DNA of 64,000 nt from Gemmatimonadota bacterium (GTDB lineage Bacteria; Gemmatimonadota; Gemmatimonadetes; Gemmatimonadales; GWC2-71-9), in the NCBI GenBank assembly GCA_039586365.1, contig JBDHKN010000012.1:1-64000 (forward strand), read 5' to 3'. This document shows positions 29,501-35,500 of this stretch, in pieces. The first letter of the stretch is position 1; each line of letters begins with the position of its first letter. The position numbers were made by a program.

Positions 29501-32500
29501 TCAATCGGCGGATACGGGAAATCGGAATCCGCATGTCTATTGGCGCCAAGCGAGCCGACATCGGCCGCCTGATGGTCAGACGTGCCCTGGTTCCGGTGGC
29601 GCTGGGGCTCGGCATAGGGCTGGGGGCTTCCTTGGCCGCAACCGGGCTGGTGCGCAGCCTGCTCTACGGCGTCCAACCCGGTGACCCGCTCACGTTGGTT
29701 GGCGGGGCGGTGTTGCTCGTGGTGACTGCTTTGCTAGCCGCGTACATACCTGCCCGCCGCGCAGCCGCGGTGGACCCGGTGCTGGCGCTACGTCAGGAGT
29801 GAGAGGAGGGACAGCTTATGGCTTCCCCTCTCAGGAGTAATCCCAGCAACTTGTGCGAGAAGAGGATAGACCAGGTCTCTCAAGACGGGGCTCTGCAAGT
29901 GATTGTCAGCCGCTTACTGGGTGCTTGAATGATCGCTCCGGCCGTGGACTTGGCGTGGACCTTGCTGCTCGATGCTCGGGCTGGTCTCGACTGACGCAGG
30001 TCGACCCGGCCAGTGACGGTGGTCACATCGCTATTGCACGGCCCAGACCGTACCTTTGTGACGCCACGGACATTGGAGACATTCAATTTGCCGCTCTCCC
30101 TGGACCACGTCGCAGCGGCCGGTGCTGACTGTAACCGGATCGAGCTCAAACTCGGAGCCGGTAGCATGTACGCTGGCTGCGTCGGCAGAAGGCCGCGGAT
30201 CTCGACCGTCGCCGGTCTGTTAACCCTCATTGCGCTCGGCCCGCTGGCGCTGGTGAGCCAGGCCCGCGCCCAGGTCGCAACCCCCAACCCAAGCCAGAAG
30301 GTTCCGGGCTTGAGATCCCATCTCAACGTACAGTATGGTGTTGATTTCTTTGGGCTCGGCCTGTATCGATCGGCCCTGCGCGCCAGCGCACTCGATCCGC
30401 TCGTCACGGTGCGGGGTGCGGTGAGTACGTGGGGTGGGATCCTCATGGAGTCCGCGGTTGCGAAGCGGCTGGGGCACTCGCCTTGGTCAACGGCGCTGAT
30501 GGGCAGCCTGTCGACCATGGAACGGAATCGGTTCTATGGTTTCGGCAACAGCACAGACGCCGGCCGTCCCGGGTCCTACTACCAGCTCGAACAGGTGCAG
30601 CTCAGGCTGGCAGCCTCGGTCACGTGGGATCTCCCTGGCGACGGCAACTACGCGACACTTGGGCCACTGATCGAGCAGCTTACCACAGAGGACGAGCTGG
30701 AGATCGGTCGCGGTGAAGACGACCCCGACGGCGGTGTGGTCGCTGACCTCAGGCCCTATGGCGTTGGGCGGTTTCGCAAAATGGGGGTCGGGACCGCTGT
30801 TGGTTTTGGATCGGCGGGCCCCCAGTCCGGAGCAGCTGTGGGATTGAGGTTCGACGCCGGAGCCCGCATGTATCCCGCGTGGCTGGATCTCACCAGTCCG
30901 CTGGCGGTGACCACGGCAACTGTGACGGCGTTCGCTATCATGCACTGGGCGCTCGAGCCTGCGGTCTCCGTTCGCCTCAGCGCAGAGCGCGTGTTCGGTG
31001 ACGCGCCATTTCACGAGTCCGTCTTCTTGGGTGGGCGGCGGTCACTGCGCGGGTTCCAGAAACAGCGCTACGCTGGGGACCTCGCTCTGGCGTTCAACTC
31101 TGAGCTGCGCCTCAACCCGTTGCGGTTAAAGGTAGCCGGTCGGCCAATCGAAGGCGGTCCGCTCGCGCTGTTGGATGTGGGTCGGGTGTACGTAAATGGC
31201 ACATCACCCGGTGGGTGGCACATTGGGGCCGGTGGCGGCCTCTGGCTGCGCGACGATCGGTCGCAACGCACCGTGAGTGCCGCACTGGTGCGAAGCTCCG
31301 AGGGGATGCGTGCCTACGTAGCGGTTGGCTTCCCCTTCTGGCCCTGAGCTGGTGAAGCCGATGCTCGGCCCCTAGGGCCGGGCGGTCGCAGGGGCATCCC
31401 TACAGCGAGCCCGGGTTCCTCCGGGGTCAAATGAGTTGGTGCAGTTTCGCTACCAGGCCGTCGTATTCGCTGCCCGCAAAGCAGTACCGTCGCTCGAGGA
31501 ATCGCCCCCTGAACGCGGCAACCTCATTCTTCACGCGCTTGTCGTGTACCACCACGTCGCGAATCAGTTGGGCCAGTTCCTGGAAATCCGCTGCTTCCAT
31601 GCCGAAACGCGTCATCTCCGCGACGCCCATGCGCAAGCCCCCTGACGCCGTGAACCCCTCTTCTCCGGGCAGCGCCTGGTAGTTGACGACTATGTTGTTG
31701 TCTTCCAACCGCTGCGCGATCTCAGGGCCCTTAGTGTAGCCAACGGTGACTATCACCTGGTGGGTCTCCGTGTAACCATCGGCCGGATCGCCGGCGACCG
31801 TGAGACCGCAGTCGTGCAAGGCGCGGGCGAGCGCTTTGGCGTTGGCCAGAACCTTGGGTTGGTACTCCTCCTTGAAATGATTCATCTCGTAGGCAGCCAG
31901 GAGGAGGCCCAACAGTGTGCCGAGATGGTGGTTACTCACGCTTCCTGGGAAGGCCCTACGGCGGACCGCTTCCCACAGCGGGTACGCCACGTCGTTTTCA
32001 CCGTAGTTGGCAGCTATGATACCGCGCTGCGTGCCGAAGTAGGTCTTGTGAGTGGAGCCGGTAACGATGTTGGCCCCCTCTTTGAAAGGCTCCTGAAAGT
32101 GAGGGCCAACCAGGCCGAGCACGTGGGCCATATCGTACATCAGCACGCATGCGAGACCGCTGTCATCGATGATGCGCCGCACTGCGGTAACCGGCTCGCG
32201 GTAGAGGACCATGCTCTTTCCCAGTATGATCAGCTCCGGTCGTTCTTCCGCTATGAGCCGCTCGCAGGCGGCGATATCGATCTTGTAGGGATTGTCTGCG
32301 AGCACTGGGAAGTTCACCACTGCGGGCCGTTCGGTTACCGGATTCCGCGCCACGAAGTCGCGCAGTGCCCCCATCGGCTGCGCGCTGAGGTGGCCACCTC
32401 GGATTATGTGGTTGTTGAGAACCTTGCGCAGCCGCCGTTGCTCGCTCTTGCGATCGCAGCGGTTGATGTAGTCCACCATCGCGCTGAACACAGCCGCATT

Positions 32501-35500
32501 CGCCATCTGGCCCGAGACGAGGCGCGCCTCCACCTCCGTGCAGCCCAGAAACGTGCGTAGCTCACCCTCGAGCAGTTGTTCAACCTCCGCGATGAAGCCC
32601 GTTCCCTGGTAGAAGAAGACCTCCAGGTCATTGAAGGCCTTGAGCGCCCGGTGCTCGGCGTAGCGACAGACGGGGTCCATCACCGAGAGCAGCCGCGTCA
32701 TGACCGACGGGCTTTGCTCGGAGGGAATCAGGTTGACGCACTGTTGCTGGCGCCACTCCGCATTCGCTATCGCCTTCTCGAGCAGGATTTGCACGTCCTT
32801 GCTTACTGCCGGCGTGGGCGGTGCTACCTCGGCTCGCTCAAACAGTTGCTCGTATGTTATCGGGTGGGTGTACGGCGGCGCTTCGCTGCGGAGATGATAG
32901 GGCACGATGACCGCCTCACGCCGCCTACCTCTGATCTCGACCTCCAACCGTTCACCATCAAGCAGATTGCTGTCCAGCAGTGCCAGGCCGATGGCCCGCT
33001 GCGCTGTCTCGGCGGCAATCGTACTGGCCAGTCCCTCTCCGTCCTGCCGCCAGTACGGTACCATCGTGCCGCTCGTGATCCAGCCGACCGGCTTCTCCCC
33101 TTGGAAAACCGGACTGCCTGCCCGTGCGATCCCCTTCTCGGCCAGCGCCACGGGCCGTACGCGCCGGGGTAGCTTGGCCGCCGCATGGTAGTCGCGCCGC
33201 ATGATGGCGCGGAGGGCTTCAAACTGGGCGTTCAGCGCATCCCTGCCGATGAACTGACCCTTGAGGGGCGAGAAGCTGACCCCAAGACGGGCCGCGGCGA
33301 TGGCGAATATCGGGATCTCGCCGCCGGCAGGGTCGCTGCCCAGCTCATGCCCGTAGAGTGGCAGGGATGCCTCGAGCCGGAGGGTGTCGCGTGCGCCGAG
33401 GCCTACCGGGGCAGCGCCACGCTGGCACAACAGGTCCCACAGCGTACCTGCCTCGTCACTAGCGATGAAGATTTCGAAGCAAAGAGGCTCACCGGTGTAA
33501 CCGGTTCTGGCAATCCTGACCGGTGCTCCCTGGATCGTCGCGTCGCTCAGGGCATTCCGCATCGGCTCGGGTAGGGCTCCACCCTCAATCACCCCCTCGA
33601 GGATCTCTTTGGAGCGTGGCCCTTGCAGGCTCAGCAGGGCAATGGCGCTGGTTTGATCCACCAACTCGACACCGGGGAACCGCTGCGCCACCTCTTGGAG
33701 GTGATTCCAATCGGTCGCGCGGTTCGCGGCGTTGACGACCAGGTCGTAGCTATCAGAGTCATACCGGTAGAGATAGGCATCATCTATCGCTCCGCCCTGC
33801 TCGTTGGGGATCAGCGTGTACTGACTGGTTCCGACATCCAGTGCCGCCGCGTTGTTGGTCAGGACGTGTTGCAGGAACGGGAGCGGGGCGGGCCCGCCGA
33901 TGCGAAACCGACCCATGTGGGACACGTCGAAGATTCCGGCCCGCTTGCGGGTCGCCAAGTGTTCCTCGAAAATGCCCGATTCGTAGTTGATGGGCATGTG
34001 CCATCCTGCAAACTCGGCCATGTGAGCGTTGAGTTTGATATGTCGGTCATGGAGGGGCGGCCTGAGAGGCTCTGGCATGGTTCACCTTTCGGGAATGTCT
34101 CCGTTGTACACTTGTCTGGCGCTCCACCGTATGGAGCGTACTGCGAAGAAATCAGCGCTGCCGGTCACAGCTGTAGTGAATTGAGGATCTGCTCGGGCAC
34201 ACCAAGGCAAAGCCCAAGATCACCGTCCCGCCCGGTGACAATGGCGTCTTGCGTCACGGTGGGTCTCATCGCAGGTCTCCCAGTGCTCCGGAATTGGAGC
34301 GAAGGTGGCGGCCTAACGTTCACTCTTAACCTGCCGCAGAAATTCTGCGCGTGCAAGGTGACAGGTGGTCGCCCGGAATAGGCCTTGAACGCTCCGGACT
34401 GTAAAACTGCACGGTTGGGGGCGGCAAAGTGTGACGGCGATCACCACGGGCCTTTACCCGCAGCGCTAGCTTCGTCTGCGATCGAAAGGCAGGTGGAGAT
34501 GGTGAAGCAGCGCAGCCACGCTCGTCAGTTTTCCCCTGAGGAGGTTCTGACGATACGGCGGAGGCTAAGTGAGGTGGAGAGGTCACCGATGTGCCCGCGG
34601 TGCGACCGGGATCTCATGGTTGAGTGTTCGATGGCGACTATCATGAGTGTGTCGTGGCAGGTCAGGTGCCAGCCCTGTCATAGAGTGGCATTCGTCGACG
34701 AGGTTACGGGAGAGTACGCGGCAAAGAGTGGGGAGTAGGCAGTAGGGGTGGGGAGCTGAGAGCGGGGAGCCGAGTAATAGTCTTGTTTCGAGCGCGACTA
34801 CGCCTCGCCGAAGTCGGACCGCGAGGTTCCGACGTACAGCCTTTAACGGGATTCAGGGTCCATCTTCTGCAGGTACAGAGTCCCGCTTCCACGTTAACGA
34901 ACGTTGGTTCTTGAACCGGATCACATTGTCAATGGGTATGTAGAAGAACGACAGTTCGTTCAATCCGCCTTCATCTCTGTAGTGAACCGTGTACAGCTGT
35001 GCTAGGTCCAAGTCTTCCTGCTCGACTCTCTCGATGGTGTGGCTGGTAGAGCCGCTATCGGCGGTGCCGAACACGAGCGTGGTCTTGCCGATGTCCAGCA
35101 CGGTCTCCGCATAGCGCGGATCCGTCGTCCTCCAGGAACCGAGGATTTCGTCCGGTATCTCCCCGGCACGCTCGGGCGCTAGTGATGTGTAGAGCACCAA
35201 CGCCAGCAGTGCCAAGAGCACGACCGAGAGCATCCCCGCCAAACCGCGTCGACTGGGTCCCCGCTGCTTTGCGGGCGGGGTAGTATTGACAATCGCCGCG
35301 CTGCCCTTCGCTGGCGTCGGTTGCCACGGGATCGTTCGTGGTCTTCTCGGCGAGCCCTTCTCATCCGGCGTCGATCCCGGCTGATGTGACCGATTCTCCT
35401 CGTTTCCAGGCACCATATCAAATACTCGCTTCGGCTGCTAACGCGGTTGCTGTGTGACCGCGCGGTGAGAGTCTCCTCGCCATCATAGAACGAAACGCTG

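What a model noticed while it worked through the whole genome (the two positions that open the first line are those of the whole stretch)
31427..34078. Natural fusion of glycine-cleavage T protein with a divergent SHMT-like PLP enzyme (two copies)
g04793 (883 aa) is one reading frame made of a complete aminomethyltransferase GcvT (residues 9-249 plus its C-domain) and a full-length, divergent serine hydroxymethyltransferase-like domain (434-839) that keeps the PLP lysine motif S-T-H-K-T; a second copy (g03906+g03907, C108:1931-4577) sits right after gcvP1-gcvP2 and is called as two genes in different frames. I read it as a bifunctional enzyme that hands 5,10-methylene-tetrahydrofolate from GcvT straight to an SHMT-type site, turning two glycines into serine (or the reverse) without free C1 units. 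If so it is an undescribed channelled core of the glycine-serine/reductive-glycine route and a ready-made part for synthetic C1 assimilation [...]
Evidence so far: pfam.tsv: GCV_T 9-249 (2e-76), SHMT 434-839 covering model 9-399 of 399 (1.6e-35). C-half is 65% identical over 503 aa to g03907 and only 27% to the housekeeping SHMT g02072; N-half 57% to g03906, 37% to GcvT g03387. Motif G-S-T-H-K-T aligns with T-T-H-K-T of g02072. Against solved structures the N-half matches aminomethyltransferases (1woo, 5-342, E 2e-53) and the C-half the SHMT of 4bhd/4uqv over its whole length (432-866 vs 10-416, E 2e-47), then a threonine aldolase (7k34) and bacterial/eukaryotic SHMTs. In the C108 copy the homology passes from the frame of g03906 to that of g03907 near C108:2870. 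Database: 6025 proteins at E<=1e-20 among 8000 scored; 108 of the best 120 carry GCV_T+SHM [...]
(Added by a program. Inside this text positions count along the whole contig: contig position 1 is position 1 of the stretch shown here. "Call 12" and the like, gene names such as g00115 and contig names such as C1 are that model's own, and its searches are not shown. The text may have been shortened before it was handed on; [...] marks where a part breaks off. The agent that wrote the report below was given it as the finding of a first reader that could run no searches.)

Follow-up and report, generated by a model that had tools for sequence, protein, structure and literature searches.

The report
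Widespread unstudied GcvT–SHMT fusion enzyme
One real gene joins the folate-dependent T protein of the glycine cleavage system to an archaeal-type serine hydroxymethyltransferase; in whole groups of anaerobic bacteria it seems to replace both ordinary genes although databases name it only "GcvT", but a direct hand-off of one-carbon units between the halves is not shown.

Summary
The fusion is real: one 883-aa frame (31427-34078, minus strand). The N-half passes the curated GcvT cut-offs; the C-half is an archaeal-type SHMT (best structure M. jannaschii 4bhd) with PLP and substrate residues invariant in 72 homologues and most folate contacts kept (Asn347 is Gln). Comparative genomics supports both activities: in one 38-genome family of Desulfobacterota-type genomes no ordinary glyA and no stand-alone gcvT was found, only the fusion; in one Lachnospiraceae genus fusion (11 of 15) and ordinary glyA (2 of 15) exclude each other. 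Carriers have the THF enzyme Fhs, not the methanopterin enzyme Mch. The 'second copy' lies on a contig that looks foreign (spirochaete-like), and its split is a 4-base duplication absent from four other runs. Channelling is unshown, and in the reductive glycine route both halves consume methylene-THF, so there is nothing to hand over. Nine literature searches found no description; this scan has noted the family before in other genomes.

The parts
31427..34078 (-). gcvT-shmt fusion gene, 883 aa (P0001)
   Evidence: single ORF; GC3 0.765, like neighbouring genes 0.69-0.79
32873..34078 (-). GcvT (aminomethyltransferase) module, residues 1-402
   Evidence: TIGR00528 255.5 bits (cut-off 235.85), PRK00389 311.7 (cut-off 300); D99, D100, N116, Y194, E202, R230, R319 invariant in 72 of 72; Z 46.2, rmsd 1.8 A, 355 aligned to 1yx2
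32807..32881 (-). inter-domain segment, residues about 400-424, beginning with an invariant A-P-P motif
   Evidence: P402 to N449 spans 41-46 residues in 70 of 72 homologues; sequence after the motif is variable; lowest pLDDT block about 70
31430..32806 (-). archaeal-type SHMT module, residues 425-883; PLP lysine K678
   Evidence: Pfam SHMT over cut-off; below the glyA cut-off PRK00011 (237 vs 335); best match 4bhd E 3e-48, Z 44.1, rmsd 1.9 A, 395 aligned; S453, Y473, E475, Y490, S522, G523, H563, S622, D649, H652, H677, K678, F710, P711, N799 invariant in 72 of 72, R816 in 71

Best explanation
A bifunctional, tetrahydrofolate-dependent enzyme: the N-half is the T protein of the glycine cleavage system (takes the aminomethyl group from lipoyl-H protein, releases NH3, makes 5,10-methylene-THF; reversible), the C-half is a PLP-dependent SHMT of the archaeal sequence type (glycine + methylene-THF <-> serine + THF). 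It dimerises through the SHMT halves, with a GcvT module docked on each. Shown here: one frame, both folds, invariant catalytic residues, displacement of both stand-alone genes, linkage to gcvH/gcvPA/gcvPB/lpd/lip genes. Inferred: both activities; THF as carrier; that the fusion fixes 1:1 expression and closeness of the two folate sites so that 2 Gly -> Ser + CO2 + NH3 + NADH (glycine use; the direction a glycine riboswitch implies) runs with local recycling of THF/methylene-THF, exchange being with the free pool and not through a sealed channel. In the window's own genome (probably Gemmatimonadota, inferred from nearest relatives) it is an extra, unlinked copy beside an ordinary gcvT, gcvH, gcvP and glyA, possibly partnered with a second GcvPA/PB pair on C22.
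For: GcvT cut-offs passed. Catalytic columns invariant in both halves in 72 full-length homologues; folate contacts named for E. coli-type SHMT in PMC9876860 (passages: E57, Y64, L121, G125, L127, Asn) map to E475, Y (69 of 72; F489 here), I558, G562, L564, Q801. Family of G023: 0 of 38 genomes with a canonical SHMT score (best 139 bits; canonical 416-567), 37 of 38 with the divergent type, 30 in frames of 871-961 aa; 32 of 38 pass the GcvT cut-off, all in the fused frame; GcvP in 34 of 38; Fhs in 37 of 38, Mch in 1 of 38. Genus of G031: 11 of 15 fusion only, 2 of 15 ordinary glyA only, none both; G243 has ordinary glyA and a fusion-type GcvT that ends at about residue 408, in front of gcvH-gcvPA-gcvPB. 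Fusion is the only GcvT over cut-off in 41 of 47 carrier genomes, 2 have both. gcvH in 27 and gcvP in 26 of 80 loci, lipA 12, lpd 5, SerK-like 7, SerB-like 5. Vescimonas fastidiosa: fusion-gcvH-gcvPA-gcvPB-lpdA-5-formyl-THF cyclo-ligase. Glycine riboswitch directly upstream in 4 of 50 carriers, at the operon head in a fifth. Model pLDDT 91.8, pTM 0.88. SHMT-half homodimer: score 0.94, best of 3 controls 0.00, runs agree in at least 90% of contacts, pLDDT at least 91; mark reached by 20 of 30 solved homodimers and 1 of 23 single chains; SHMT dimers are solved, so this shows likeness only.
Against: No assay. The C-half fails the bacterial glyA cut-off (237 vs 335) and differs from E. coli GlyA at S99>Q, H129>A, R235>Q, GGP262-264>SNH and N347>Q, with a 7-residue insertion in the Y55-Y65 folate loop; R235>Q and SNH are shared with the M. 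jannaschii enzyme, N347>Q is not. 35 of 50 carriers keep another SHMT (34 canonical), which fits a specialised or redundant role. The threonine transaldolase 7k34 is structurally almost as close (Z 42.0, rmsd 4.0 A vs Z 44.1, rmsd 1.9 A). The riboswitch cases are four related Bacillota; none at the window. Genomes are mostly MAGs whose completeness the tool did not print; kin are not independent. No full Fhs was found in the window's genome (47-residue hit only; 86% complete).
Confidence: 0.78

Rival explanations
1. True channelling enzyme: the rigid GcvT-SHMT unit passes methylene-THF from one site to the other without release, making serine from two glycines.
For: pTM 0.88 for the whole chain implies a confident relative placement of the halves (inference from what pTM measures); tight linker length and invariant APP motif; family-specific conserved insertions in both halves; methylene-THF is labile (PMC8727733, passages); precedent, recalled: folate channelling in DHFR-TS and in dimethylglycine oxidase, whose C-half is a GcvT fold (1pj6).
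Against: No coordinates were available to measure a path. The SHMT insertions 544-549 and 564-584 lie at least partly in the homodimer interface. Stand-alone members are nested in the clade (P0128, P0134, P0153, P0171) and a GcvT-only form exists. Where it is the only GcvT and SHMT, other folate enzymes still need C1 (panB follows the fusion in L052). In the reductive direction both sites consume methylene-THF.
Confidence: 0.15
2. The C-half is a folate-independent aldolase/transaldolase or acts on another beta-hydroxy amino acid, fused to GcvT for glycine supply (for example threonine -> glycine + acetaldehyde).
For: Third-best PDB sequence hit is L-threonine transaldolase 7k34; fluorothreonine transaldolase model hits at 136 bits (cut-off 650); N347>Q and loop-1 insertion; active transaldolases are often annotated as SHMT (PMC10495429, passages); an archaeal SHMT homologue defective in the THF reaction is reported (PMC9876860, passage); 34 of 50 carriers keep canonical glyA.
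Against: E57, Y64/Y65, G125-H126-L127, F257-P258 and N345 equivalents are kept, while divergent stand-alone relatives lose them; 7k34 matches only residues 597-845; mutual exclusion with glyA; serine-pathway and 5-formyl-THF cyclo-ligase neighbours. A side aldolase activity is likely in any SHMT.
Confidence: 0.08
3. The SHMT half uses a modified pterin (methanopterin type), as the M. jannaschii enzyme does.
For: Closest solved relative is tetrahydromethanopterin-dependent (title in the reference list of PMC9876860); invariant Gln at the pterin-binding Asn position.
Against: Mch in 1 of 38 and Fhs in 37 of 38 genomes of the family where it is the only SHMT; no Mch in the window's genome; Tyr64 is kept in 69 of 72 where M. 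jannaschii has Leu; the fused GcvT half has the THF-binding residues of bacterial GcvT.
Confidence: 0.04
4. For the window copy only: a horizontally acquired, redundant copy of little use to its host.
For: Not found in 150 other genomes sampled from the host's order; no gcv gene or riboswitch near it; host has its own gcvT, gcvH, gcvP, glyA; Phe instead of Tyr at the Y64 position.
Against: Intact frame and catalytic residues; host-like GC3; kept at 74-75% identity in two other Gemmatimonadota, forming one branch; these three also share a second GcvPA/PB type (80-85%) that was found in 1 of 150 non-carriers (three related genomes, one event possible).
Confidence: 0.2

Closest known systems
Glycine cleavage T protein GcvT (EC 2.1.2.10; TIGR00528, PRK00389; 1yx2, 1woo/1wos, 3a8i)
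   Same: Passes both curated cut-offs; same fold (Z 46.2, rmsd 1.8 A); catalytic and H-protein-contact residues invariant; found in gcvH-gcvPA-gcvPB-lpd-lip operons.
   Different: Carries a 460-residue SHMT at its C-terminus and two insertions (about 285-305 and 341-364) absent from E. coli GcvT.
Archaeal-type serine hydroxymethyltransferase (M. jannaschii, 4bhd/4uqv)
   Same: Best sequence and structure match over the full length; shares GSTHKT, G-x-Q-x-G, FPG-x-VSNHH motifs.
   Different: About 32% identity; Tyr-Tyr in the folate loop, Gln for Asn347, three clade-specific insertions; occurs mainly in bacteria with THF (Fhs) and without Mch; fused to GcvT.
Bacterial GlyA (PRK00011; E. coli 1dfo)
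   Same: PLP, substrate and most folate-contact residues align; appears interchangeable with glyA in genomes.
   Different: Below the family cut-off (237 vs 335); separate clade; tblastn with the C-half does not even find the genome's own glyA at E 1e-3.
L-threonine transaldolases (ObiH 7k34, fluorothreonine transaldolase TIGR04506)
   Same: Same fold-type I PLP fold, conserved His/Asp/Lys/Arg.
   Different: Far below the FTase cut-off; only the C-terminal part aligns by sequence; the fusion keeps SHMT folate residues.
GcvT-fold fusions: dimethylglycine oxidase/dehydrogenase, sarcosine oxidase alpha, TMAO demethylase
   Same: A GcvT-type folate domain joined to another catalytic domain (1pj6, 5l46, 1vrq).
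   Different: There the GcvT fold is C-terminal and traps formaldehyde from a demethylase (recalled); here it is N-terminal, a true T protein, and the partner is a second folate enzyme.

Membership tests
GcvT (glycine cleavage T protein) | Score above TIGR00528 / PRK00389 cut-offs | tested here: met
   255.5 > 235.85 and 311.7 > 300
GcvT (glycine cleavage T protein) | Catalytic and folate residues (E. coli D96, D97, N113, Y188, E195, R223) and H-protein contact R292 (mature numbering and roles recalled) | tested here: met
   D99, D100, N116, Y194, E202, R230, R319 align and are invariant in 72 of 72
GcvT (glycine cleavage T protein) | Works with H, P and L proteins (gene linkage or co-occurrence) | tested here: met
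   Family level: gcvH 27, gcvP 26 of 80 loci; full operon in V. fastidiosa. Window copy unlinked, but H and P genes are in the genome
GcvT (glycine cleavage T protein) | Aminomethyltransferase activity | not testable with these tools
   needs assay
Serine hydroxymethyltransferase (PF00464, broad family) | Full-length SHMT fold with PLP lysine and PLP/substrate residues | tested here: met
   Pfam 121.8 bits over model 9-399; Z 44.1 to 4bhd; S35, Y55, Y65, G98, H126, S175, D200, H203, H228, K229, R363 equivalents kept
Serine hydroxymethyltransferase (PF00464, broad family) | Folate-contact residues E57, Y64, L121, G125, L127, N347 | tested here: inconclusive
   E, G, L kept; L121>I; Y64 kept in 69 of 72 but F in the window copy; N347>Q in 72 of 72
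Serine hydroxymethyltransferase (PF00464, broad family) | Homodimer with shared active sites | tested here: met
   model only: 0.94 vs best control 0.00; likeness to solved SHMT dimers
Serine hydroxymethyltransferase (PF00464, broad family) | THF-dependent serine-glycine interconversion | not testable with these tools
   indirect support from displacement of glyA
Canonical bacterial GlyA (PRK00011) | Score above cut-off; GGP and R235 motifs | tested here: not met
   237 < 335; SNH and Q684 instead
Methanopterin-dependent archaeal SHMT | Host has H4MPT-linked C1 enzymes (Mch) | tested here: not met
   Mch 1 of 38 in the family of G023, 0 in the window's genome (86% complete)
L-threonine / fluorothreonine transaldolases | Score above TIGR04506 cut-off; full-length sequence match to ObiH | tested here: not met
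   136.3 < 650; 7k34 aligns to 597-845 only
Channelling bifunctional folate enzymes | Tunnel or electrostatic path between sites; kinetic coupling | not testable with these tools
   model coordinates not available; only pTM 0.88

The most novel reading that the evidence does not exclude
The fusion is a rigid, dimeric GcvT-SHMT unit that passes methylene-THF between its two folate sites in preference to the bulk pool: a natural one-gene version of the glycine decarboxylase-SHMT couple, built on an archaeal-type SHMT that uses THF, and the sole glycine-serine hub of whole anaerobe families.
Probability: 0.2. Interest if true: 0.75.

Novelty: new variant of a known kind. Interest (0 to 1): 0.5.

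Why it matters
Automatic annotation names the protein 'GcvT' only, so genomes such as the 38 of the G023 family would be scored as lacking SHMT, which distorts reconstructions of serine synthesis and of the reductive glycine route in uncultured anaerobes. It gives an archaeal-type SHMT clade that probably uses THF, a handle on what sets pterin specificity. It also makes a long-discussed question, whether glycine cleavage and SHMT share methylene-THF locally, testable in one polypeptide from cultured carriers (Vescimonas fastidiosa WP_212821284.1; Desulfospira joergensenii). Its value as a part for formate assimilation is limited to co-expression, since both halves consume methylene-THF in that direction.

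Tried and rejected
Literature: nine completed searches of the held library gave no paper describing the fusion; exact phrases such as gcvT-glyA, GcvT-SHMT, fused gcvT gave 0 papers. I saw search listings for all, and term passages only for 10.1101/2025.08.26.672485, 10.64898/2026.04.11.717937 (19), PMC10327494, 10.1101/741918 (61), PMC10495429, PMC9876860, PMC8727733; none mentions it. Subscription papers and all supplements were not seen and may mention it. Natural split forms: three loci with a break near the linker (L034, L077, L087); the two I read look like frameshifts, not separate genes. Riboswitch or other Rfam RNA in the window: none; promoter/terminator scan at or below chance. Plasmid collection: 1 true fusion among the 10 listed records; the other nine are adjacent ordinary genes. 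C108 MeaB against the spirochaete genome G034: no match, uninformative. Runs holding the C108 gene: no RNA holder listed; expression of the window gene was not tested. Inter-domain coevolution was not attempted (alignment too shallow). Riboswitch counts are lower bounds (63 candidates scored per genome).

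
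Full report
Observation. Window 31427-34078 (minus strand) is one open frame of 883 codons. Pfam places GCV_T at 9-249, GCV_T_C at 356-393 and SHMT at 434-839 over nearly the whole model. The N-half passes the curated GcvT cut-offs (TIGR00528 255.5 vs 235.85; PRK00389 311.7 vs 300); the C-half stays below the bacterial glyA cut-off (237 vs 335) and far below fluorothreonine transaldolase (136 vs 650). The best solved relatives are T. maritima and B. subtilis GcvT and M. jannaschii SHMT. An AlphaFold model from 150 homologues has pLDDT 91.8 and pTM 0.88; its halves align to 1yx2 (Z 46.2, rmsd 1.8 A, 355 residues) and 4bhd (Z 44.1, 1.9 A, 395 residues); transaldolase 7k34 gives Z 42.0 at 4.0 A. 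No listed structure covers both halves (TM-score by query at most 0.43). The gene has no gcv neighbour, riboswitch or notable signal in the window, and its GC3 matches its neighbours.

The 'second copy'. A homologue lies on C108 behind gcvPA-gcvPB. Its frame change is a 4-base tandem duplication at C108:2852-2859. Contigs from 4 of 4 public runs of 4 studies that cover this place lack the 4 bases, so the natural allele is an intact fusion and the split is an assembly error or a private lesion. C108 itself looks foreign: GC 0.554 against 0.602, tetranucleotide distance 4.86 against a maximum of 3.35 in 177 control windows; its fusion is sister to a Spirochaetaceae sequence (SH-aLRT 99) while the window copy groups with two Gemmatimonadota (92) in a 79-row tree; its GcvPB is 56% identical to the spirochaete genome's and 36-45% to four Gemmatimonadota genomes'. 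Contamination of the bin is the likeliest reading; a recent transfer is not excluded because read depth could not be compared.

Distribution. 106 of 126 candidate stretches in the species-level genome collection encode a relative; the 80 kept span Desulfobacterota and other Deltaproteobacteria (59 by NCBI label), Bacillota (7), Acidobacteriota, Gemmatimonadota, Actinomycetota, Chloroflexota, Spirochaetota and others. 71 of the 80 hold a full frame of at least 800 aa; the nine left out of the residue counts were cut by contig ends or frameshifted. Deeper fusions of 35-50% identity occur in proteins labelled Pseudomonadota and Woesearchaeota. All fused SHMT domains form one clade (support 99, FastTree, 66 rows) that also holds four stand-alone proteins. 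Named sources call the protein GcvT or aminomethyltransferase. Cultured carriers: Vescimonas fastidiosa and Desulfospira joergensenii. In the host's order it was found in 0 of 150 other genomes, so it was gained by a sub-lineage.

Residues. Against E. coli GcvT and GlyA fetched from the K-12 record, and over 72 full-length homologues: D99, D100, N116, Y194, E202, R230 and R319 are invariant in the GcvT half (roles recalled). In the SHMT half the equivalents of S35, Y55, E57, Y65, S97, G98, G125, H126, L127, S175, D200, H203, H228, K229, F257, P258 and N345 are invariant and R363 is in 71. Tyr64 is Tyr in 69 and Phe in 3, the window copy among them. Differences from E. coli are S99>Q, H129>A, R235>Q, GGP>SNH and N347>Q. 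R235>Q and SNH are M. jannaschii features; N347>Q marks this clade. PMC9876860 (passages) lists E57, Y64, L121, G125, L127 and the Asn as THF contacts, so the folate site is largely but not wholly conventional. Divergent stand-alone relatives lose E57, Y64 and the FP motif; the fusions do not. The segment from the invariant APP motif to the first SHMT strand is 41-46 residues in 70 of 72. The SHMT half models as a homodimer (0.94, best control 0.00; runs agree in at least 90% of contacts; pLDDT at least 91; the mark was reached by 20 of 30 solved homodimers and 1 of 23 single chains), which shows likeness to known SHMT dimers.

Comparative genetics. Of 50 carrier genomes (hand-picked from the 80 for spread), 15 have no other full SHMT, 34 keep a canonical glyA and 1 a further divergent SHMT. 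In the family of G023 (NCBI labels Syntrophaceae/Deltaproteobacteria; 38 genomes, completeness filter 90 requested, figures not printed) no canonical SHMT was found, 37 hold the divergent type and 30 of these in frames of 871-961 aa; every GcvT over cut-off (32 genomes) is the fused one; GcvP is in 34, Fhs in 37, Mch in 1. In three of these genomes the fusion lies 4-13 kb behind a cluster with lipB-lpd-lipA, preceded by gcvH-gcvPA-gcvPB in the two where the stretch reached that far. In the genus of G031 (Lachnospiraceae), 11 of 15 genomes have only the fused SHMT (one with an internal stop), 2 only canonical glyA, 1 a fragment, 1 none. One of the two glyA genomes has a fusion-type GcvT that ends at about residue 408 directly before gcvH-gcvPA-gcvPB: where glyA is present the SHMT half is absent. 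Over 47 carriers the fusion is the only GcvT above cut-off in 41; 2 have both; 4 have none above cut-off. Neighbours in 80 loci: gcvH 27, gcvP 26, lipA 12, Lrp regulator 11, SerK-like 7, SerB-like 5, lpd 5, aminotransferase 4; among 36 loci of at least 14 kb, 17 have gcvH or gcvP, so about half are unlinked like the window copy. Glycine riboswitches lie directly upstream in 4 of 50 carriers, all Bacillota, and at the operon head in one Thermoleophilia genome. These genomes are kin and mostly MAGs, so the counts are patterns and not independent trials.

Mechanism. The evidence fits a bifunctional THF enzyme that fills both folate-linked steps between glycine and serine. Direction probably varies: glycine use (2 Gly -> Ser + CO2 + NH3) where a glycine riboswitch leads the operon; either direction in Fhs-bearing anaerobes. 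Only in the glycine-use direction, or its exact reverse, does one half make what the other uses. A fixed docking of the halves is suggested by pTM 0.88, which leaves local recycling or partial channelling open, but a GcvT-only form, nested stand-alone SHMTs, and the need of other enzymes for C1 units argue against a sealed channel. In the host genome the gene duplicates ordinary gcvT (C96), glyA (C61), gcvH and gcvP (C68); a second GcvPA/PB pair on C22 is shared at 80-85% with the two other Gemmatimonadota carriers and was found in 1 of 150 non-carriers, a possible partner, though three related genomes may be one event.

Novelty. Both halves belong to known families; the architecture and the SHMT clade appear undescribed in the library searched (nine searches; subscription papers and supplements unseen). 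This scan has reported the same family before: 13 look-alike windows in 13 genomes, 8 notes shown; I reached my reading before seeing them and took one lead from them, the glycine riboswitch, which I then tested. Verdict: new variant of a known kind; interest 0.5.

Noticed in passing
G000:C108 (L001), also C83, C36, C100, C15, C93, C70, C11, C115, C38: A set of low-GC contigs are tetranucleotide outliers in this assembly; C108 looks spirochaete-like. Findings on these contigs may not belong to the binned organism.
   Followed up: partly
L109:5076-8168 (G000:C22): A second, divergent GcvPA/GcvPB pair without gcvT or gcvH beside it; shared by the three Gemmatimonadota that carry the fusion, found in 1 of 150 others.
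   Followed up: partly
L116:5329-6540 (G243): Fusion-type GcvT ending just after the linker motif, without SHMT half, in a genome with ordinary glyA: a natural fission or loss.
   Followed up: yes
L032:8702-9598 and L037:9852-11111: A SerK-like (ParB-fold serine kinase, weak hit) gene and an ACT-ACT-SerB-like phosphatase follow the fusion in 7 and 5 loci: a possible serine/phosphoserine module in Desulfobacterota.
   Followed up: no
L044:3369-8748; L052:1162-8609; L085:3359-5716: Glycine riboswitch, glyoxylate/hydroxypyruvate reductase-like and aminotransferase genes before the fusion (L044); aminotransferase, an unusual ~790-aa transketolase-like protein and panB around it (L052, L085): a possible serine-hydroxypyruvate-glycerate route.
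   Followed up: no
P0133: A fusion whose SHMT half has lost E57, H126 and the PLP lysine equivalents: a degenerate member.
   Followed up: no
P0147 / P0296, P0171: Fused and stand-alone members of the clade in proteins labelled Woesearchaeota.
   Followed up: no
G004, G034, G038, G041, G043: A third, stand-alone SHMT-family class (about 200-210 bits, frames of 435-444 aa) in these bacteria besides the fusion.
   Followed up: no
L086:11775-14201: Lipoate-protein ligase fused to dihydrolipoyl dehydrogenase (809 aa) behind fusion-gcvH-gcvPA-gcvPB in a Coriobacteriales genome.
   Followed up: no
window 19306-21330 (-): 674-aa predicted lipoprotein made of about six repeats of a ~90-residue beta-rich unit.
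   Followed up: no
G000:C55:2938-4142: Two tandem GcvH-like domains in frames of 232 and 280 aa, apart from the gcv genes.
   Followed up: no
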